DNA from: Escherichia phage JMPW1
Sequence record: NC_041874.1
Reading direction: 5' to 3' (one strand)
Length of the DNA: 49,628 nucleotides
Below are positions 23,785 through 49,628 of this stretch, one piece after another. A program made the position numbers and the translations under genes. How positions within the stretch are numbered: position 1 is the stretch's first letter; each line of letters starts with the position of its first letter. The notes beneath the pieces are model-generated. The model did not search any database. It was not told where the DNA came from and saw only the letters and a program-made list of their open reading frames with translations.

Positions 23785-23873
23785 CACCTCATGACAAAAG
23801 CCCGCCTTGCGCGGGTGGCGCTCAGGTTTACAGATTTCACGGAGAGAATATCCAGTACACTCCAGAAGAAATA

Positions 23874-24479
23874 ATGCAGGCCCAGCAAACCGGAACACTA
23901 CCGCCGAAAGAAATTACATTCCGTGGTGAGCAATACGGAGCGCGCCCGTTCGGTATATCCGGGATCTCGTTTGATAGTTCCGGCAAGGCAACAAAACCAC
24001 AATTAACAGTGGCAAATATTGATAGCAGAGTGTCGGCAATGATTCGCGCATATAACGGATTGATGCAGGCGAAGGTGACAATCTGGATCACTCAAAAGGA
24101 CTTAATTCAACCTGACGGCTCAATCGCTGATGGAGCTTACCGTAAACTGGTATACTATATCGAACGCCCGAGCTATGTCGATAAGAGTGTTGCGTGGTTC
24201 GATCTCACATCACCGTATGATATGGATGGCATCATGATCCCATCTCGACTCACACAAAGCGTATGCTATTGGGCGCAGCGTGGATGGTATAAAACCGGGA
24301 AGGGCTGCGGATATAACGGGCAAAACGGTTACTTTGATAAAGACAATAACCCGGTAGATGATCCTTCACTGGACTTTTGCCCAGGAACGGTAACGGCCTG
24401 CCGCCTGCGATTCGGCGCAAACAATGAATTGGATTTTGGCGGTTGCGCTGTCGCTTCACTACAGAGGAAAAATCAATGA
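23874..24479 (+). CDS. minor tail protein (lambda gpL-like); N-terminus may be incomplete
   Basis: ITFRGEQYGARPFGISGISFDSSGKATKPQLTVANI aligns with lambda L VTWQGRQYQPYPIQGSGFELNGKGTSTRPTLTVSNL (from memory). Cys-rich C-terminus. Confidence 0.8.
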   Translation: MQAQQTGTLPPKEITFRGEQYGARPFGISGISFDSSGKATKPQLTVANIDSRVSAMIRAYNGLMQAKVTIWITQKDLIQPDGSIADGAYRKLVYYIERPSYVDKSVAWFDLTSPYDMDGIMIPSRLTQSVCYWAQRGWYKTGKGCGYNGQNGYFDKDNNPVDDPSLDFCPGTVTACRLRFGANNELDFGGCAVASLQRKNQ

Positions 24480-32948: not shown

Positions 32949-33365
32949 ATGCATATTATCACTGGCGAGATCCGCAAAGAACCTAAGATTCTTGAACGTA
33001 ACGGCGGCAATACTTATATCATCGAACTGGCAGAAAGCTATAAGCCTCGCGATGGCGATCGTGAATACACCAACTACACATTCTTTTTTAGCGATGGTGG
33101 AAAGCCTGGCCTTGCTGACTGGTATCGTGAAGCGTTCCAGGTTGGTCGCGTAGTATCAGTGTCGTGCGAAACTCTGAAAATCTCATCCCGTGAGCACAAC
33201 GGAACTGTTTACAATTCATTGCAGGCCGCTGATTTTCCTAAGCTGGTATTCAGTCAGCGAGGACAAAGCAATCAACAACAGCGATCGCCTCAGCAACAAC
33301 AGCGAACTCAACAACAACCACAACCGAACCATCAGTCAACATTTGACGATGATATCCCATTCTAA
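32949..33365 (+). CDS. ssb: single-stranded DNA-binding protein
   Basis: OB-fold-sized N-terminus, Q/P-rich linker, C-terminal tip TFDDDIPF (SSB hallmark). Confidence 0.85.
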   Translation: MHIITGEIRKEPKILERNGGNTYIIELAESYKPRDGDREYTNYTFFFSDGGKPGLADWYREAFQVGRVVSVSCETLKISSREHNGTVYNSLQAADFPKLVFSQRGQSNQQQRSPQQQQRTQQQPQPNHQSTFDDDIPF

Positions 33366-43812: not shown

Positions 43813-44011
43813 TGTACCTTTTTACGTTAAGTAGTAACTCCCCATCCTGGTCGCAAAGATTATGCTCGCTTTCGTTACTGGCCCTCATTGAAGTGAGCAA
43901 CAGACTCAACAACCCTTGCTCAAATTCTTCTTTCGTAAGCTGGAGCCTTGCGCACAATTCGACGTTCCGATCTATCAATGTTTCTACGTTCTCCAAACAA
44001 ATCCTCATCAC
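43808..44011 (-). CDS. hypothetical protein (67 aa)
   Basis: GGAGAG SD 8 nt before ATGATG; helical-looking sequence; overlaps 3' end of 43920-44327 by 92 nt. Confidence 0.4.
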   Translation of the reverse strand: MMRICLENVETLIDRNVELCARLQLTKEEFEQGLLSLLLTSMRASNESEHNLCDQDGELLLNVKRYK

Positions 44012-44327
44012 TCATCTCTCCAATGTGCATCATTTCCCACGTATACCGATTGTTGTAGCCATCAATACACATCAGCTTCATCATTACCGGGCGCTTAATC
44101 TTTCCCTTGCACCAGTAAAACCCATCCCTGCAATCAAGATAACCCTCAGTTACACAGCGTGAGCAAAACTCCTTAGATAGCGCGCTTGTAAATTCACGGC
44201 GAGTCATTCCTGCGGCCTTAGCAAATCGCTCACTTTCCTTGTGGGCGTATATAAATTTCGCTATGTGCTGTCGAGTGTATTTGTCGTAACCTTCGCAGAA
44301 CCTGAACAGATCTAAAAGAAGAAGCAT
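43920..44327 (-). CDS. hypothetical Cys-rich protein (135 aa)
   Basis: ORF track; starts 4 nt after upstream stop; C-terminal 30 aa are low-complexity R/E-rich. Confidence 0.5.
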   Translation of the reverse strand: MLLLLDLFRFCEGYDKYTRQHIAKFIYAHKESERFAKAAGMTRREFTSALSKEFCSRCVTEGYLDCRDGFYWCKGKIKRPVMMKLMCIDGYNNRYTWEMMHIGEMSDEDLFGERRNIDRSERRIVRKAPAYERRI

Positions 44328-44331
44328 ATTA

Positions 44332-45900
44332 TTAACCCATCAGTCGAGGGTTGATGAAAACAATATCATCAATCCGGCAAGTGTAGTTCATCTCTTCGAG
44401 CGTGATCAGCAGGCTGTCGATTCGCTCAGATACTTTCTGTTGACCGTTGAACGGCGTAACGTTCCGGCACTTTGCAACGATGCTATGAATAGGTGCGCGG
44501 CCTTTGTTCTTCTTCGCGATCTCAGTGATAACATCAATCAGCTTACGAGATTCAGCCTCATCACCTGCATACCCGGCAGCGCTGGCAGATGACAGGTAAG
44601 TCCTGGAAAGCTCATTGAAGATCATGATCGCTTCCTGCATTGTTTCAAGGTCAATCTCACGATTAGATCGGTTCGGTGATTCACCCTCCCAATTCTTGAT
44701 CGTGTGAAGAACTGAAGCAATGCGCAAAGCGTGCTTATCGAACTTACCGAGATGACCGCGTAGCATTGAGTGAGAGTATTTGCCCCCGGCGGCGAAATCA
44801 GGCTCCATCGCCTGGCGAGCAAGGTTTAATTCACGCATAGCGTTACGGCTTACAGAGAGAACGACGTTGTCCTCCTTCATAATGTTGTGCACGAGTCTGT
44901 AATATTTGCTAACCAGTCCGCGATCTACTTCCTTATACAGCGCATCACCATTTTCATCGCAAAGAATACGAGTACCTAAAAGCGGTTCCTCTCGAACCAG
45001 GAGGAAACGCTCAGATACACCGATACCGCGCTGGCCTGCGTCCATGATACCCTTGATTGTTTCATCCTGCGCAATGACGCAGATCGAACCGACCGGGCAA
45101 AGAGATAAGTTGTTGTCCTGATTTGAACGCGCGACCTCCATATGGTTTTTATCCCACGCCTTAAGAATAAGCTCGCTGTTTGATTTCTTATCAGAACCGC
45201 CATAAGTCAGACCAAGCAATGTATTGATTGCCGTTGCTTCATCAGATATTACGGAAAAGTGGCCTTGAACAGCCGCAACTTTCGCAAGACCTTCAGGTGT
45301 AGGATCTGATACCGCGAAAACAATATCAGCCATCTTCTTGATCTTTTCTTCCAGTTTTTCCTTGTCTTCGTACAGAGCCGCCGTCGTGTTACCCTTTGGA
45401 TCGTTTTTTATTTCTTTCTCGACCTGACGTAGCTGACTGGTTAAACGTATGCGCTCCTTTTTGCGCTCTTCATTCAGTCGCTGAATCTCCGCACGCATAG
45501 GTGTAATCGCCGCTGAGTTAATAGCGGACTTACCTGTTGATGGTGGCTGGCTGATTACCATGTAAAGCGCGGTCGGCTGTTCTTCGCCGTGATATTGCAC
45601 CCAAAACTTCCCGAGCATAGCGGCTGAGATGCACCCAATGAAATGAGCGTACGCAGACGAAACAGGGAACTGTACAGACTCAGCCTTTGCCTTTGCATAT
45701 TCGAATACCAGGTTATCGCCACCTAACGAAATCAGCGGGAACTTATCGTTTCCACTGTTGATATCGATCGGATCTTGCCAAAACGAAACTGAATCCCCAT
45801 AGCTGTTTTCACGAATTGCGATCGACACCGGATTAACTCCAGTGCTATTTGCGATCTCAATAATCTGTTGGTAATTCAATTTTGGCTTAATATTAAACAT
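44332..45900 (-). CDS. DUF3987-type replicative helicase-like P-loop protein
   Basis: P-loop-like SQPPSTGKSA; overall YfjI/DUF3987 look; AAGGAG SD before ATG 45900. The longer 45963 start in the ORF track runs into the promoter cassette. Confidence 0.7.
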   Translation of the reverse strand: MFNIKPKLNYQQIIEIANSTGVNPVSIAIRENSYGDSVSFWQDPIDINSGNDKFPLISLGGDNLVFEYAKAKAESVQFPVSSAYAHFIGCISAAMLGKFWVQYHGEEQPTALYMVISQPPSTGKSAINSAAITPMRAEIQRLNEERKKERIRLTSQLRQVEKEIKNDPKGNTTAALYEDKEKLEEKIKKMADIVFAVSDPTPEGLAKVAAVQGHFSVISDEATAINTLLGLTYGGSDKKSNSELILKAWDKNHMEVARSNQDNNLSLCPVGSICVIAQDETIKGIMDAGQRGIGVSERFLLVREEPLLGTRILCDENGDALYKEVDRGLVSKYYRLVHNIMKEDNVVLSVSRNAMRELNLARQAMEPDFAAGGKYSHSMLRGHLGKFDKHALRIASVLHTIKNWEGESPNRSNREIDLETMQEAIMIFNELSRTYLSSASAAGYAGDEAESRKLIDVITEIAKKNKGRAPIHSIVAKCRNVTPFNGQQKVSERIDSLLITLEEMNYTCRIDDIVFINPRLMG

Positions 45901-45929
45901 CACAATAAACTCCTTAGTTGACGGTGTGA

Positions 45930-45972
45930 ATGATACACCGCCAATGGTACACGCGTTTTGCAAAAAGTGCTA
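45930..45972 (-). promoter_or_regulatory. palindrome-promoter cassette
   Basis: Minus strand: TAGCActtttTGCAA, 22 nt, TATCAT (45935-45930); hairpin GGTGT/ACACC around the -10. Confidence 0.5.
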
Positions 45973-45976
45973 TTGG

Positions 45977-46393
45977 TTATAAGTATTTGGCCTCAAAGGT
46001 TGTGCCATCTGCGATACTAAAACCGATCTCTTCGCGAAATAATGTCCAACGGCATCCGTCCTCATCAAAGATGTAACCAGCTACGCCGCCGAGAGCGCGA
46101 CCGCTTTCTACCTGGTAACGCTTTCCAACTTTGAATGATTTTTTCATCGGGTTGCGATGGTCAAGTCCGGTGCACTTTAGCGTCTTTGTTTTCAACTCGG
46201 TGAATTTCGCGAAGAAGATTTCATCAGTTCCGTGAATCTGTAATTCATCATGCTTTTCAAGTTTTAAATACTTCCCGCATTTTAGTTTTACTTCGCGAGT
46301 ACCATCATAGCGCTCACGACCTTTATACAAATTGTTTACTTCGAATCCTGTGATCTTGTCTGCGGAAGTGCATTTCAGTTTGATGGATTTCAT
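45977..46393 (-). CDS. hypothetical protein with two K-x-KC mini-domains (138 aa)
   Basis: MKSIKLKCTSADKITGFEVNNLYKG and KTKTLKCTGLD...FKVGKRYQV...DEDGC repeats; AACCAATCAGGAG leader. Confidence 0.55.
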   Translation of the reverse strand: MKSIKLKCTSADKITGFEVNNLYKGRERYDGTREVKLKCGKYLKLEKHDELQIHGTDEIFFAKFTELKTKTLKCTGLDHRNPMKKSFKVGKRYQVESGRALGGVAGYIFDEDGCRWTLFREEIGFSIADGTTFEAKYL

Positions 46394-46429
46394 GGCGCTA
46401 GCTCCTGATTGGTTATCTTGAATAAGGCC

Positions 46430-46472
46430 ACTTTATCAAATGACCTTACGGCAATATTAACAAATCGTGCTA
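46430..46472 (-). promoter_or_regulatory. palindrome-promoter cassette
   Basis: Minus strand: TAGCAcgattTGTTA, 22 nt, TGaTAAAGT (46435-46430); hairpin AAGGTCA/TGGCCTT; AACCAATCAGGAG leader. Confidence 0.55.
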
Positions 46473-46473
46473 T

Positions 46474-46683
46474 TTACCAGGGAATATAATTGTCGTCGTC
46501 CTCATCAATATCATCACCAGGTAACTCGAAGTCTGGATTATATTCGCTTTCTGCGTCCATATCCATATTCCCTAGAGCGTCATCAAGCGTAATTTCTTTA
46601 TACGCAACCTTTATACACCATTCCGCACTAAGCCCAGCATCAAGAGCGGCAAAATAACGAGTCCAGAAATTATCCTGCTCCAT
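46474..46683 (-). CDS. small acidic protein with SSB-like C-terminal tip (69 aa)
   Basis: ATG 46683; the TTG at 46686 abuts the upstream TGA. C-terminus PGDDIDEDDDNYIPW. Confidence 0.55.
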   Translation of the reverse strand: MEQDNFWTRYFAALDAGLSAEWCIKVAYKEITLDDALGNMDMDAESEYNPDFELPGDDIDEDDDNYIPW

Positions 46684-46686
46684 CAA

Positions 46687-46911
46687 TCAACCCCATGAAT
46701 TAATGTAAATTGAGTTAGCCTCAAGCGTAGCGCGCACATCCGCATCTGTTGCATTTACTAAGCGCGAGCCTGGCGTGCTGCCGATAACGTTATTACCGTT
46801 ACGAGCCTTAGTTACCGTCATTGAAATAAAACCGGAAGACTTATCCATTTTGATAACTACACGGCCTTTAGCGTTCAGGTGCGTGATGATATTCTCAACT
46901 TTAATGCTCAT
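46687..46911 (-). CDS. hypothetical protein (74 aa)
   Basis: Follows cassette 46945-46988; AAAGGAATTAAAA-ATG. Confidence 0.55.
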   Translation of the reverse strand: MSIKVENIITHLNAKGRVVIKMDKSSGFISMTVTKARNGNNVIGSTPGSRLVNATDADVRATLEANSIYINSWG

Positions 46912-46944
46912 TTTTAATTCCTTTGTTTCGTTTGGTGTGGGAGT

Positions 46945-46988
46945 AATATACCTTACCCCCTATTGTATGTCTTTAGCAATTCGTGCTA
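46945..46988 (-). promoter_or_regulatory. palindrome-promoter cassette
   Basis: Minus strand: TAGCAcgaatTGCTA, 23 nt, TATATT (46950-46945). Confidence 0.5.
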
Positions 46989-47132
46989 TCAGTACTCAGA
47001 AATTACTTTGCACTCTTTGATTGTTCCACCCAAAACTACTTTCTGCATCATTGCTTTTTGTTGGCTATCGTAAACGCGAACATTTTTTACTCTGTTAAAT
47101 TTGCCAGTATAGAAGGTGTGAATATAAATCAT
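46989..47132 (-). CDS. possible hypothetical protein (47 aa)
   Basis: ATGA overlap with upstream stop; fills an otherwise empty 140-nt gap; its TGA abuts palindrome 46974-46988. Confidence 0.35.
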   Translation of the reverse strand: MIYIHTFYTGKFNRVKNVRVYDSQQKAMMQKVVLGGTIKECKVISEY

Positions 47133-47452
47133 TTTTTACCGTCCCACGTTTGATATGCCGTAACCAGGTTAATGCTGTGGTCGAACTCGTCAACGCTAAG
47201 CGATCCGATTCTAACAAGCTCTTTGTCGTGCTTAATATCAATCATCCGGCTATATGGATGGCCTGGCACATACTTGAACAGTCGTTTGCTGTCGGCAATG
47301 TCTGCGTTGATTCCGTAGAATCGGCCTACCGCCGCCTTAACGCGCTCCATGATGTTTTTTTCGTGGATTGCCGCCGCGTTATTTAGTGCCGCAACCGTGC
47401 TTCCGTTAATCTTCGGTGACTTCGTTGTGATTTTGTAAGTGTGGTTCATCAT
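47129..47452 (-). CDS. hypothetical protein (about 107 aa), paralog of 47659-48030
   Basis: AGGGGG SD before ATGATG at 47452/47449; ERVKAAVGRFYGINAD block shared with EKAVRAALTAYYGVSD. Confidence 0.5.
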   Translation of the reverse strand: MMNHTYKITTKSPKINGSTVAALNNAAAIHEKNIMERVKAAVGRFYGINADIADSKRLFKYVPGHPYSRMIDIKHDKELVRIGSLSVDEFDHSINLVTAYQTWDGKK

Positions 47453-47465
47453 TCCCCCTAACCAG

Positions 47466-47684
47466 TCAGGATAGCTTTCGCGCTTCATCAATGATAACAG
47501 GCTCAAGGCGTTCAAGTCGAACGCGGAACGAGTTCATAAATCCTTCGTTGTTCTTCAGTAGTTCGAATGCGTCTGTAGCTTCAATGGCGCTATTCCCCAT
47601 GTAGGCAATTACTTTTTTCTGAGTCTTACGTGAGATCGCCACTACGCGGTAAATATTATCACTCATACAATGCCTCTTTAACAC
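47466..47684 (-). CDS. hypothetical protein (72 aa)
   Basis: ORF track; overlaps upstream gene end by 26 nt. Confidence 0.45.
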   Translation of the reverse strand: MLKRHCMSDNIYRVVAISRKTQKKVIAYMGNSAIEATDAFELLKNNEGFMNSFRVRLERLEPVIIDEARKLS

Positions 47685-48030
47685 GATCCGCTACACATGA
47701 GTTAACGGTGATTGAATAGTTAGCCACGCCCCATAATGCAATATTGCCAAGCTCGGTACGCATTGATGGATTGTTTAGCTGAATGATTGTCTCGCCAGTA
47801 TCTTTATCGACGAAGCGAGACACGCCAGAATGGTCCACCACGCGCGTTACTCGGTTCACGCACTCCATTGCATCACTTACACCATAATAGGCGGTTAGGG
47901 CGGCTCTCACGGCCTTCTCTTGCTTGTTGTAAATCTTGCGAGCGATGTTCTCGATCGCTACGCTTTCTTTCTCGTCAGTCTGGATTGCCGTGCTGGCTGA
48001 GAAGTCCAGATCTGTGAACTGCTTAAACAT
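47659..48030 (-). CDS. hypothetical protein (123 aa), paralog of 47129-47452
   Basis: ACGAGGAAATAATC-ATG after cassette 48062-48104. Confidence 0.5.
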   Translation of the reverse strand: MFKQFTDLDFSASTAIQTDEKESVAIENIARKIYNKQEKAVRAALTAYYGVSDAMECVNRVTRVVDHSGVSRFVDKDTGETIIQLNNPSMRTELGNIALWGVANYSITVNSCVADRVKEALYE

Positions 48031-48061
48031 GATTATTTCCTCGTTTGCTGCTGATGGGATG

Positions 48062-48104
48062 ACTATACCAGCCATCCCGGATGCGCGTTTAGCAAAAAGT
48101 GCTA
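48062..48104 (-). promoter_or_regulatory. palindrome-promoter cassette
   Basis: Minus strand: TAGCActtttTGCTA, 22 nt, TGgTATAGT (48067-48062); hairpin GGGATG/CATCCC. Confidence 0.6.
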
Positions 48105-48105
48105 T

Positions 48106-48291
48106 TTAGAATTTTACTTCCTCAACAAGCTCAACCATTTTATAACCCAGGCGATATGAGTCGCCGAACAACAACAGACCCATAAATTCATCGTTGGTTA
48201 TCGACTCCTTACCAACAGTTTTAAGTTCTCCGTTGTGAATCACAGTATCGCCGATCTTGATTTCTGATTTATGCACTAATTTCGTTTTCAT
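48106..48291 (-). CDS. hypothetical protein (61 aa)
   Basis: ORF track; its stop lies next to palindrome 48090-48104. Confidence 0.5.
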   Translation of the reverse strand: MKTKLVHKSEIKIGDTVIHNGELKTVGKESITNDEFMGLLLFGDSYRLGYKMVELVEEVKF

Positions 48292-48306
48292 TTGTTAGCC
48301 TGTTAA

Positions 48307-48492
48307 TTAAAAGAACGCTACATAGTTTGCAATACCTTTTGCATCGTCGTTAGGCATCGCCTTGACAGCCAGGTCATAACCAGCCTCTACCTTCTGCTTT
48401 GCTGATTCTTCGTTGTATCCCCAAATAACCAGGATTTTAACTACGTTTTCTTTGTTCAGAACTTTAAGGTATTTAGTGATGCGACGTGCCAT
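48307..48492 (-). CDS. hypothetical protein (61 aa)
   Basis: GAGGAAAAACAAA-ATG after cassette 48526-48568. Confidence 0.5.
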   Translation of the reverse strand: MARRITKYLKVLNKENVVKILVIWGYNEESAKQKVEAGYDLAVKAMPNDDAKGIANYVAFF

Positions 48493-48525
48493 TTTGTTTT
48501 TCCTCAATCTCGTTTCGATGAGGTA

Positions 48526-48568
48526 ATTATGCCAAATCGCACCGATCGAGTTTTAACAAAAAGTGCTA
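48526..48568 (-). promoter_or_regulatory. palindrome-promoter cassette
   Basis: Minus strand: TAGCActtttTGTTA, 22 nt, TGgCATAAT (48531-48526). The palindrome lies inside the last codons of the C5-MTase gene. Confidence 0.55.
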
Positions 48569-49257
48569 TTTGCGATCGCTTTGAAAAATCCACGAGGAGA
48601 TAAGGAACGTATCAGCTTCGTTTTGGCAGACTTGCCGCCCAGCTTGTTTTGCTGTGCAGAGTACCCGTCATGCAGGTTTACAGGCTTCCTTTCTGGCATG
48701 ACAAAGTCGTCCGAAGTCCAAAGACAAGTTTTCTTCGGGTAAGCATCGCGCGGCGCAATATACATCGGGAACCAGGGGTGTGCGTCATTCTCAGGAAGAT
48801 AGCCGCCATACTCCCAGGGATTGAAAGTGTGGTCAGCCTTTCGCCAGGCTGATGACAGGACGCTAACCGGATTCTCAATGATGTAAGTCACACCCAGGCT
48901 ATCACCGATGTTCGCGGCAATCCGGGCGGTGGCAACAGCTTTCTCCTGGAATAGCGGATCACGTTTACGCTTGCTGGCAAAGTGTCGAGCACCACTAACG
49001 GCCAGGTCAGTGCACGGCGGGAAGGCCATAATGAAATCCGGCTTGCCATACACACCCGCGATCGCATCACGTTCGAACGTTTCATCAATGAACACGTTCA
49101 CATACTCAATGTTGGGATGCTCTACCCGGGCATTGTACTTTGCATAATCTCCGTGATCGGCTCCGTCAAAGTTGAAGCACATCACTTTATGACCTTGCTT
49201 TGCCAGTTCATGACCAGCCAGGCCCGAGCCGTCGAATAGTGACCAGATTAATTTCAT
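48553..49257 (-). CDS. DNA (cytosine-5)-methyltransferase, compact form
   Basis: Motif I LFDGSG, motif IV FPPCTDLAVSG (PC), motif VI IIENPV. The 3' end encodes palindrome 48554-48568. Confidence 0.8.
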   Translation of the reverse strand: MKLIWSLFDGSGLAGHELAKQGHKVMCFNFDGADHGDYAKYNARVEHPNIEYVNVFIDETFERDAIAGVYGKPDFIMAFPPCTDLAVSGARHFASKRKRDPLFQEKAVATARIAANIGDSLGVTYIIENPVSVLSSAWRKADHTFNPWEYGGYLPENDAHPWFPMYIAPRDAYPKKTCLWTSDDFVMPERKPVNLHDGYSAQQNKLGGKSAKTKLIRSLSPRGFFKAIANSTFC

Positions 49258-49466
49258 TTCGTTACCTCCTGGAAAACAGTTTGTCCGCTATTGGTCAGGA
49301 AGCGCCCGATCTTATTCATTGACCGGAACACGCCGATCTGATTCTGATGATTGTCAGTCGCGAAGTAACCGCCATCAATAAGGTAGATTTCATACACTGA
49401 TTGATTCGTGAAGCTGTCAGTGCTGACGCTAACACATCGTACGGTACATTCAAATTCTGGTTCCAT
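49254..49466 (-). CDS. hypothetical protein (70 aa), first gene of leftward early operon
   Basis: AACCAATCAGAGGACTCAGGCA-ATG after cassette 49499-49542. Confidence 0.5.
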   Translation of the reverse strand: MEPEFECTVRCVSVSTDSFTNQSVYEIYLIDGGYFATDNHQNQIGVFRSMNKIGRFLTNSGQTVFQEVTK

Positions 49467-49498
49467 TGCCTGAGTCCTCTGATTGGTTGATGTGATGA

Positions 49499-49542
49499 AT
49501 CATACCCTGCCGACCTGGCTGAGTCGTTAGCAAAAAATGCTA
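49499..49542 (-). promoter_or_regulatory. palindrome-promoter cassette (first of leftward operon)
   Basis: Minus strand: TAGCAtttttTGCTA, 23 nt, TATGAT (49504-49499); AACCAATCAGAGGA leader. Confidence 0.5.
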
Positions 49543-49628
49543 TTCCAATAATTGCTCATTATTCCATCAATAGCGGAATAGGTGGAATAATTCTGATTGC
49601 GATTGATTGCAAATGATGAAACGTGATT

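What the first reader, a model, noticed from the sequence alone, without database searches (positions are those of the whole stretch)
46474..46683. Small acidic protein ending in an SSB-like C-terminal tip (…DEDDDNYIPW)
The phage SSB (32949-33365) ends in TFDDDIPF. This is the conserved acidic tip that bacterial SSB uses to recruit ExoI, RecQ, PriA, the chi subunit, RecO and other partners.

The unrelated 69-aa early protein ends in PGDDIDEDDDNYIPW. It has the same pattern of an acidic run, then Ile-Pro, then an aromatic residue as the very last amino acid.

A free-standing decoy carrying this tip could compete with host SSB for its partner proteins, for example to blunt nucleases or helicases. 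It could also tether a phage function to them. I know of no described phage SSB-tail mimic of this kind.
Basis: inference. Interest (0 to 1): 0.7.

Follow-up and report, generated by a model that had tools for sequence, protein, structure and literature searches.

The report
Phage protein with SSB-like tail tip
A 69-residue protein of a T1-like phage, and a whole family of relatives, end in a conserved Asp-x-Ile-Pro-Phe/Trp tip that copies the docking peptide of bacterial SSB, so it probably plugs into a partner of SSB, but no binding has been shown.

Summary
The minus-strand ORF 46474-46683 encodes a 69-aa, very acidic protein ending ...DEDDDNYIPW. The phage SSB (32949-33365) ends TFDDDIPF.

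The window is a Tunavirus, 100% identical over this region to Escherichia phage phi2013.

The tip is not chance:
- YIPW is nearly invariant in Tunavirus homologues while the linker drifts.
- An exhaustive profile search gave 23 complete small representative clusters. Their last residues are F20/W3, P22, I18 (L2, V1, F1, E1), variable, then D15/E3.
- The family consensus is therefore [DE]-x-I-P-F-COOH, against D-D-I-P-F in SSB.
- Among 1,155 six-frame ORFs scanned, only family members, SSBs and one stray ORF end this way.

AlphaFold2 predicts a small three-helix head (residues 6-38) with no known fold, then a disordered acidic tail.

The best reading is a tethered mimic of the SSB tail that docks in the SSB-tail pocket of a host enzyme, as a blocker or an adaptor. 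This is inferred from sequence alone. Position -4 is not acidic, some relatives carry Cys knuckles, FPF or IPFW, and the partner is unknown.

Nine full-text searches found no description of such a protein. Some GenBank records call it "putative cytosine DNA methylase", which is unfounded.

The parts
46474..46683 (-). Whole ORF (69 codons plus stop): a small acidic protein (net charge -17), member of PHROG 9085
   Evidence: ORF and translation; phrog_9085, E 5.8e-46, full length; homologues; 21 synonymous vs 8 non-synonymous codon differences against T1; charge
46546..46683 (-). Residues 1-46: conserved head domain of three short helices (6-16, 20-27, 33-38), followed by the most conserved motif of the family, ALG-x-MDMD-x-ES
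   Evidence: AlphaFold2 models, (pLDDT about 75-81 over the helices). Invariant or near-invariant residues in A1/A3/A4. The same module occurs in other Drexlerviridae (phrog_9323) and inside larger proteins. No fold or sequence match to anything characterised.
46492..46545 (-). Residues 47-64: variable, acidic linker predicted to be disordered (SEYNPDFELPGDDIDEDDD). About 48% of residues 39-65 are Asp or Glu.
   Evidence: No secondary structure and pLDDT 54-61. The sequence varies between homologues but stays net negative.
46477..46491 (-). Residues 65-69, NYIPW: the C-terminal tip. The family consensus is [DE]-x-I-P-[FW]-COOH.
   Evidence: YIPW is at least 90% conserved in A1. Tip logo over 23 representative clusters. 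Endings of all representatives.
32949..33365 (+). Phage SSB. Its last residues, TFDDDIPF (tip codons at 33345-33362), carry the canonical SSB-Ct used for comparison.
   Evidence: translation; phrog_44. Other Drexlerviridae SSBs end [IM]DFDDDIPF.
46687..46911 (-). Upstream neighbour, 74 aa, PHROG 4344, function unknown. Its stop codon lies 3 nt before the start of the finding ORF, in the same frame. It is a syntenic partner in many Drexlerviridae.
45977..46393 (-). Downstream neighbour, 138 aa, PHROG 2684, function unknown. It precedes the helicase, with an HNH endonuclease gene between them in T1.
44332..45963 (-). DUF3987 / PHROG 2373 DNA helicase, at the end of the same leftward gene cluster (context only)

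Best explanation
The gene encodes a modular, host-directed accessory protein with three parts: a 45-residue three-helix head, a flexible acidic linker of about 20 residues, and a C-terminal [DE]-x-Ile-Pro-Phe/Trp tip with a free carboxylate. The tip copies the core of the bacterial SSB C-terminal peptide (D-D-I-P-F).

I propose that the tip inserts its Pro-aromatic end into the hydrophobic, basic-rimmed pocket that SSB-interacting proteins use to hold the SSB tail. The head would supply a second contact that gives affinity and selectivity. The protein would then occupy the SSB-docking site of one particular enzyme and uncouple it from SSB-coated phage ssDNA. It would leave alone the partners that the phage's own DFDDDIPF-tipped SSB needs.

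My leading guess for the target is a host 3'-ssDNA nuclease or helicase such as ExoI, RecJ or RecQ, or a defence protein that uses SSB. Such enzymes would attack the intermediates of the phage's RecE-like/Erf-like recombination.

Shown: the ORF, its conservation, the tip consensus, the predicted disorder, and the canonical tip on the phage SSB. Inferred: that the tip binds an SSB-tail pocket, that the partner is a host protein, and that the effect is inhibitory.
For: - Tip consensus over 23 representative clusters at 50% identity: -1 F20/W3, -2 P22/23, -3 I18 L2 V1 F1 E1, -5 D15/E3. This matches SSB-Ct at four of its last five positions.
- 26 of the 31 small representatives end in the motif or a near variant. 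The other five are fragments or have lost the normal C-terminus.
- Endings of this kind are essentially absent from background ORFs: 1 among 1,155 scanned, once the family members and SSBs are set aside.
- The tip is always at the extreme C-terminus, as required for recognition of a free carboxylate. The only exception is the IPFW variant.
- The tail is predicted to be disordered and is net negative in every member, from -3 to -14, like the SSB linker plus acidic tip.
[quoted passage not shown] The terminal Pro-Phe sits in a hydrophobic pocket in RecO and ExoI, within positively charged sites (PMC7145534, read). DDDIPF is the conserved hub motif (PMC5872125, abstract).
- The known hosts of the family (Escherichia, Shigella, Klebsiella, Salmonella, Enterobacter, Vibrio) are bacteria whose phages' SSBs end DFDDDIPF.
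- The head module also occurs in unrelated phages, outside replication modules and with other C-terminal modules. This points to a host partner rather than a phage partner.
- The phage encodes an exonuclease VIII-like protein and an Erf-like annealing protein next to its SSB.
Against:
- Position -4 is Asp in SSB but variable in the family (C10, E4, G, V, H, Y, F, Q).
- The window copy has Asn at -5, Tyr at -4 and a terminal Trp.
- Tempevirinae copies read K/P-R-C-F-P-F, with a basic residue where SSB is acidic.
- Webervirus-like copies end IPFW, which shifts the carboxylate by one residue.
- Many copies place a CxC...CxxC knuckle directly before IPF, so the tip may be part of a small metal-bound structure and not a free peptide.
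- All phage SSBs checked keep a perfect host-type tip, so competition would also hit the phage's own SSB unless it is selective.
- The head domain has no recognisable fold or function.
Confidence: 0.45

Rival explanations
1. Adaptor, not blocker. The head binds a phage or host replication or recombination protein. The tip recruits an SSB partner to it, for example the chi subunit of the Pol III clamp loader, DnaG or PriA. This would help a phage with no polymerase of its own to assemble a hybrid replisome.
For: The tip evidence is the same as for the best explanation. The gene sits in the leftward cluster that ends in the DUF3987 helicase in all Drexlerviridae examined. No DNA polymerase turned up among the window proteins I scanned, and the phage SSB keeps a host-type tip. 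That fits dependence on host replisome parts, but I did not annotate the whole window. From my own knowledge: the T7 helicase-primase gp4 and the T7 SSB gp2.5 both carry acidic tails ending in Phe that contact the same polymerase.
Against: The head module is also found in phages with quite different replication genes and in non-replication contexts. Roughly half of the records that carry this type of SSB gave no tblastn hit to the family (a weak comparison). An accessory gene fits a core replisome adaptor poorly.
Confidence: 0.15
2. The tip is read by a phage protein that also reads the phage SSB tail (the Erf-like annealing protein, the RecE-like exonuclease, the primase or the DUF3987 helicase). 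The small protein would regulate or time phage recombination or replication.
For: Exonuclease VIII-like, Erf-like and SSB genes are adjacent in the window. Phage annealing proteins can depend on their cognate SSB (PMC5928155, abstract).
Against: The small protein's tip varies (IPW, CFPF, CIPFW, IPF, LPF) while the phage SSB tip stays DFDDDIPF in the same phages. There is therefore no covariation pointing to a shared phage-specific reader. The head module occurs in phages with other recombination systems.
Confidence: 0.1
3. The hydrophobic-Pro-aromatic end has nothing to do with SSB. It binds another receptor, such as the beta-clamp cleft, readers of the FtsZ C-terminal peptide (D-I-P-x-F) or a protease adaptor. 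Or it is a structural part of a small C-terminal (metal-binding) fold.
For: The deviations from SSB-Ct listed above support this: variable -4, K/R before FPF, IPFW, and Cys knuckles abutting the tip. From my own knowledge: the Hda clamp-binding motif QLSLPL and the FtsZ peptide DIPAFL share hydrophobic-Pro features.
Against: No Gln-Leu start of a clamp motif is present. I-P-F is contiguous and strictly C-terminal, as in SSB and unlike FtsZ. An acidic residue at -5 and a net-negative tail are conserved. From my own knowledge: no E. coli system other than the SSB partners is known to read an -IPF carboxy-terminus.
Confidence: 0.2
4. An acidic DNA mimic or general polyanion decoy, in which the Asp/Glu run is the active part and the tip is incidental.
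For: Net charge is -17 over 69 residues, and 48% of residues 39-65 are Asp or Glu. Phage DNA mimics such as gp5.9 are small acidic proteins (PMC9836394, abstract).
Against: The acidic run is the least conserved part. Cys-type relatives have tails of only -3 to -6. The invariant features are the head and the tip. The acidic stretch is predicted to be disordered, not a rigid DNA-like surface.
Confidence: 0.04
5. A cytosine DNA methylase, or a fragment of one, as some GenBank records name it.
For: U136B_078, Klebsiella phage Domnhall and EF3-1 gp37 carry the name 'putative cytosine DNA methylase'.
Against: The protein has 69-80 residues and no methyltransferase domain in Pfam. The real methyltransferase (PHROG 757, 234 aa) is a separate gene, directly downstream of the family gene in several relatives, so the name may have been copied from it.
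Confidence: 0.01

Closest known systems
C-terminal tip of bacterial SSB (SSB-Ct, E. coli MDFDDDIPF)
   Same: Both have an extreme C-terminal Ile-Pro-aromatic with a free carboxylate, an acidic residue at -5, a net-negative disordered segment in front, and hosts whose SSB ends DDDIPF (PMC7145534).
   Different: The tip is carried by a helical 45-residue head and not by an OB-fold tetramer. Position -4 is not acidic. The window copy ends in Trp. Many relatives have a Cys knuckle, FPF or IPFW. Binding has not been shown.
SSBs of T1-like phages (window 32949-33365 and homologues)
   Same: They are in the same genomes and have the same kind of tail architecture: a disordered linker plus an IPF tip.
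   Different: The phage SSBs keep an exact host-type DFDDDIPF after a Gln/Pro-rich linker and match PHROG 44. The small protein shows no sequence similarity to them, and its tip has drifted.
Acidic C-terminal tails of T7 gp2.5 (SSB) and T7 gp4 (helicase-primase)
   Same: This is a phage precedent for an SSB-type acidic tail ending in an aromatic residue that mediates protein contacts (gp2.5 tail: PMC10359462). From my own knowledge, a second, non-SSB replication protein (gp4) carries a similar tail aimed at the same partner.
   Different: The T7 tails act on the phage's own polymerase and have no Ile-Pro-Phe. In T7 the tail belongs to a large enzyme, whereas here it sits on a free-standing 69-residue protein.
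Small acidic phage inhibitors of host DNA-repair hubs (T7 gp5.9, P22 Abc2, lambda Gam against RecBCD)
   Same: They are small, acidic accessory phage proteins that protect phage DNA ends or intermediates by binding a host DNA-processing enzyme (PMC9836394, abstract).
   Different: Those proteins act as folded DNA mimics or as hijackers of RecBCD. Here the proposed active element is a short linear motif copied from SSB. There is no sequence or fold relation.
Synthetic SSB-Ct peptides and small molecules that block SSB-partner interfaces
   Same: The proposed principle is the same: occupying the SSB-Ct pocket of a partner to uncouple it from SSB (PMC5872125, abstract).
   Different: Those are laboratory tools. 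A natural, phage-encoded protein doing this has not been described in the literature I could search.

Membership tests
PHROG 9085 / 9323 (small Drexlerviridae proteins of unknown function) | Full-length profile match | tested here: met
   phrog_9085 E 5.8e-46 over residues 1-69. phrog_9323 E 8e-24 over residues 1-47, the head only.
SSB-Ct-type C-terminal motif | Aromatic residue as the very last amino acid (free carboxylate) | tested here: met
   Trp69 in the window. F20/W3 at -1 in 23 representative clusters. Two further clusters end IPFW.
SSB-Ct-type C-terminal motif | Pro at -2 and Ile/Leu at -3 | tested here: met
   P22/23 at -2. I18, L2, V1, F1, E1 at -3. The window has I67-P68.
SSB-Ct-type C-terminal motif | Run of Asp directly before Ile (positions -4 to -6) | tested here: inconclusive
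   Position -5 is acidic in 18 of 23 clusters, but -4 is variable (C10, E4 and others). The window reads D-D-D-N-Y-I-P-W, so the run ends two residues early. Tempevirinae copies have K/P-R-C before FPF.
SSB-Ct-type C-terminal motif | Presented on a disordered linker | tested here: met
   AlphaFold2 gives no secondary structure and pLDDT 54-62 for residues 39-69 in two runs. This is a prediction only.
SSB-Ct-type C-terminal motif | Binds the SSB-Ct pocket of SSB-interacting proteins | not testable with these tools
Single-stranded DNA-binding proteins (OB-fold SSB) | OB-fold ssDNA-binding core | tested here: not met
   No Pfam or PHROG SSB match. Predicted all-helical head. No BLASTP similarity to the phage SSB.
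Cytosine DNA methyltransferase (name in some GenBank records) | Methyltransferase domain with SAM-binding and catalytic motifs | tested here: not met
   69 residues, no Pfam methyltransferase hit. The real methyltransferase is a separate 234-aa gene, PHROG 757.
Beta-clamp-binding motif (QL[SD]LF type) | Gln at position 1 and Leu/Phe pattern | tested here: not met
   No Gln-Leu at the corresponding positions in the tip logo. The motif definition is from my own knowledge.
Folded DNA-mimic proteins (Ocr, gp5.9, Arn type) | Rigid fold displaying carboxylates in a DNA-like array | tested here: not met
   The acidic residues lie in the variable segment predicted to be disordered. No fold match.

The most novel reading that the evidence does not exclude
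T1-like phages encode a family of free-standing SSB-tail mimics. These would be natural protein inhibitors, or hijackers, of the SSB interaction hub. Each would selectively plug the SSB-docking pocket of one host nuclease, helicase or defence protein while the phage's own canonical SSB keeps using the rest of the hub.
Probability: 0.3. Interest if true: 0.8.

Novelty: new variant of a known kind. Interest (0 to 1): 0.6.

Why it matters
The SSB C-terminal tip organises replication, repair and recombination enzymes in bacteria (at least 17 partners in E. coli) and is being pursued as an antibiotic target. If a phage protein family copies this tip on a non-SSB scaffold, it would be the first natural inhibitor or adaptor aimed at that hub. 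It would show which SSB partner is most dangerous or most useful to a recombination-dependent phage. It would also supply evolved peptide variants (IPW, C-IPF, FPF, IPFW) that may discriminate between partner pockets. Several defence systems are thought to sense phage SSBs, so it could also be a counter-defence. A practical gain is correcting a misleading 'cytosine DNA methylase' name that is spreading through phage records.

Tried and rejected
- Pfam scan of the protein and of larger relatives gave nothing significant.
- A profile search of PDB sequences gave no hit at E up to 10.
- The promoter and terminator scan of 44000-49628 gave counts at the level of the shuffled controls.
- Synteny gave no functional clue. 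Distant members all lie in the same Drexlerviridae cluster upstream of PHROG 2684 and the DUF3987 helicase, and the neighbours are all of unknown function. Larger proteins with the head module sit in unrelated places.
- I tested whether the small protein's tip covaries with the phage SSB's tip. It does not: the SSB tips are invariant.
- Nine full-text literature searches for a phage SSB-tail mimic, decoy or anti-defence protein, or for essentiality data on Drexlerviridae genes, found nothing relevant. Papers opened on HIDEN-SEQ, Retron-Eco11 and Druantia do not cover this gene.
- I considered a helix-turn-helix DNA-binding reading of the head, because it has an A-x3-G-L pattern. I set it aside because the head is net acidic and no HTH family matched.
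- I considered programmed readthrough from the upstream gene, which is in the same frame with one TGA between. I rejected it because the frames differ in U136B.

Full report
**What the window is.** The region 45900-47600 is 100% identical to Escherichia phage phi2013 and vB_Henu5_2. It is about 92-94% identical to many Escherichia and Shigella T1-like phages. The window is therefore essentially a Tunavirus genome (Drexlerviridae).

**The observation.**
- On the minus strand, 46474-46683 encodes MEQDNFWTRYFAALDAGLSAEWCIKVAYKEITLDDALGNMDMDAESEYNPDFELPGDDIDEDDDNYIPW.
- The SSB ORF 32949-33365 ends ...HQSTFDDDIPF and matches PHROG 44.
- BLASTP finds no similarity between the two proteins.
- The small ORF matches PHROG 9085 over its full length (E 6e-46), and its first 47 residues also match PHROG 9323. 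It has no Pfam family.
- Against phage T1 the gene differs at 21 synonymous and 8 non-synonymous codons. The T1 protein ends ...DDINEDVDDYIPW. It is a real gene under purifying selection.

**Is the tip more than chance?**
- In the window, only 3 of 319 six-frame ORFs of at least 40 aa end in hydrophobic-Pro-aromatic. They are the SSB, this ORF, and a 40-aa alternative-frame ORF at 23807-23929.
- In 836 ORFs from 22 related loci, the only such endings are 13 family members and 4 SSBs.
- In 26 Tunavirinae homologues, down to 59% identity, Y66, I67, P68 and W69 are at least 90% conserved. The preceding linker changes freely, for example ELPGDDIDEDDDN against VMTSEDNSIPGED.

**The wider family.**
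- tblastn and annotated records showed that other Drexlerviridae carry the same head with different tails. U136B and tunus end ...CGCNFDPSCKRCFPF. Vibrio phage Vc1 ends ...CPRSFPF. Klebsiella phage RCIP0010 ends ...CGCTGEEGCRECIPFW. TH27 ends ...KFDDGIPF.
- A profile search of the 5.8-billion-protein collection and an exhaustive HMM search of 1.84 billion cluster representatives gave 41 representative clusters at E up to 0.001, two of them repeat-protein false positives.
- Of 31 small representatives, 22 end in hydrophobic-Pro-Phe/Trp, two end IPFW, one EPF and one ISF. The other five are fragments or have lost the normal C-terminus.
- Over the 23 complete representatives taken for the logo (the two IPFW clusters left out), the logo of the last five positions is: -5 D15/E3; -4 variable (C10, E4 and others); -3 I18/L2/V1/F1/E1; -2 P22; -1 F20/W3. 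Every tail is net negative, from -3 to -14.
- The family consensus, [DE]-x-I-P-F-COOH, is closer to the E. coli SSB tip (D-D-I-P-F) than the window copy is.
- About half of the representatives place a CxC-x5/6-CxxC knuckle immediately before IPF.

**Architecture.** Two AlphaFold2 runs, with 37 and 46 aligned sequences, agree. They predict three short helices (6-16, 20-27, 33-38; pLDDT about 75-81), then no regular structure to the end (pLDDT 54-62).
- The head has no detectable relative among solved structures or named families.
- The most conserved stretch of all is ALG-x-MDMD-x-ES, just after helix 3.
- The head also occurs inside larger proteins that lack the tip. Ackermannviridae proteins such as Vi01_187c have an extra N-terminal domain and a different conserved C-terminus. 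Proteins of 217-309 residues have a C-terminal CPAC...CPAC ribbon. These sit in unrelated genomic places: next to lysozyme and baseplate genes in one contig, and between structural modules in another.

**Genomic context.**
- In all Drexlerviridae examined, including distant metagenomic ones, the gene lies in a leftward cluster of small genes. It is usually just after a 72-76-aa PHROG 4344 gene, and it is upstream of a 138-143-aa PHROG 2684 gene and the DUF3987 helicase. A PHROG 757 DNA methyltransferase is often inserted next to it.
- All neighbours except the methyltransferase and the helicase are of unknown function.
- Promoter-like and terminator-like matches in the region are at chance level.
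- Records with a homologue of this SSB type (1,047) outnumber those with a detectable family member. The gene therefore looks accessory, although tblastn with a 69-aa query is insensitive.

**The phage SSB tips.** The SSBs of FritzSarasin, BHUENT1, K50_evo23 and Tls all end [IM]DFDDDIPF. This is the E. coli tip, whatever tip their small protein carries. Two conclusions follow.
- These phages exploit host SSB partners through their own SSB, so a general decoy would be self-defeating.
- There is no covariation that would point to a phage-specific reader shared by the SSB and the small protein.

**What is known about the motif.**
- The terminal Pro-Phe sits in a hydrophobic pocket of RecO and ExoI, within conserved, positively charged sites that differ between partners (PMC7145534).
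- DDDIPF is the conserved hub motif and a drug target (PMC5872125).
- Several defence systems are thought to sense phage SSBs (PMC12904381).
- The acidic tail of T7 gp2.5 contacts other replication proteins (PMC10359462). That T7 gp4 carries a similar tail is from my own knowledge.

**Interpretation.** The conserved elements are the head and the tip, and the linker is a variable acidic tether. The simplest mechanism is a two-point binder. The tip would occupy an SSB-Ct pocket, and the head would bind nearby or on a second protein.
- I judge it about even that the tip engages an SSB-Ct pocket at all.
- Within that, I favour a selective block of a host enzyme over an adaptor role or a phage-internal role. 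The head module travels between unrelated phages, the gene looks accessory, and the phage's own SSB must keep access to the hub.
- ExoI, RecJ or RecQ are attractive targets, because the phage relies on an exonuclease VIII-like/Erf-like recombination module whose 3' ssDNA intermediates, coated by IPF-tipped SSB, would attract these enzymes. This step is pure inference.
- The deviations from SSB-Ct keep a non-SSB receptor or a structural role for the tip as a serious rival. These deviations are the variable -4 position, Trp, K/R-C-FPF, IPFW and the Cys knuckles.

**Novelty.** Nine full-text searches found no described non-SSB phage protein with an SSB-like tip, and no functional data on this gene. 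The library does not hold most subscription-journal papers, so absence is not proof. The name 'putative cytosine DNA methylase' attached to this family in some records is contradicted by size and domain content.

**Verdict.** The finding is worth an experiment.

Noticed in passing
window 23807-23929 (+): A 40-aa ORF, in a different frame from the tail gene that starts at 23874, also ends ...ERNYIPW. These are the same last five residues as the finding, but encoded by different codons. It is probably a chance ORF.
   Followed up: partly
window 46684-46689 (-), junction of ORFs 46687-46911 and 46474-46683: The upstream 74-aa gene and the finding ORF are in the same frame, separated only by TGA and TTG. 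One database protein (P0063, Shigella phage vB_SsoS_008, 98 aa) is annotated as a fusion of the two. The frames differ in U136B, so this is probably an assembly or annotation artefact and not readthrough.
   Followed up: partly
L001 1501-1725 (U136B_078); L018 775-984 (EF3-1 gp37); Klebsiella phage Domnhall (H43): GenBank records name members of this family 'putative cytosine DNA methylase'. EF3-1 names the upstream PHROG 4344 gene 'HTH-type transcriptional regulator ImmR', and U136B names it 'polyribonucleotide nucleotidyltransferase'. The methylase name has no domain support here. The two names for the PHROG 4344 gene disagree with each other, PHROGs lists it as function unknown, and the window copy has no Pfam match.
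   Followed up: partly
window 32949-33365 (+); L019-L022: The SSB of these phages has no Pfam SSB hit (only PHROG 44). Yet it keeps a Gln/Pro-rich linker and an exact E. coli-type (D)FDDDIPF tip in every Drexlerviridae genome checked.
   Followed up: yes
window 33258-33362 (SSB residues 104-138): The SSB tail region weakly matches the C-termini of three PHROGs of unknown function (2544, 4477, 3284; E 0.015-0.43). This may mean that other non-SSB phage protein families also carry SSB-like tails.
   Followed up: no
window 46546-46581 (residues 35-46, DALGNMDMDAES): The most conserved stretch of the whole family, including large relatives without the IPF tip, is ALG-x-MDMD-x-ES. It lies at the end of the head and looks somewhat like the upstream half (PMDFDDD) of the E. 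coli SSB tip. Its significance is unknown.
   Followed up: no
L001 1501-1725, L002 1483-1722, L003 1501-1725; proteins P0143, P0144, P0152, P0160, P0162, P0165, P0167, P0173: Many relatives replace the acidic run by a CxC-x5/6-CxxC motif, possibly a zinc knuckle, directly abutting the IPF/FPF tip. P0155 and P0170 have two such motifs.
   Followed up: partly
L005 1240-1719 (Vi01_187c); L015 8001-8654; L016 8001-8681: The head module is reused in larger proteins of Ackermannviridae and other phages with quite different C-terminal modules. One carries a precomputed Pfam hit, Phage_Mu_gp6. They sit in accessory or moron-like positions.
   Followed up: partly
one search hit list (H54, H61): Records labelled Campylobacter phage A13a and A15a carry T1-like sequence with this gene. 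There are about 20 such records, and they look like mislabelled or contaminating Drexlerviridae.
   Followed up: no
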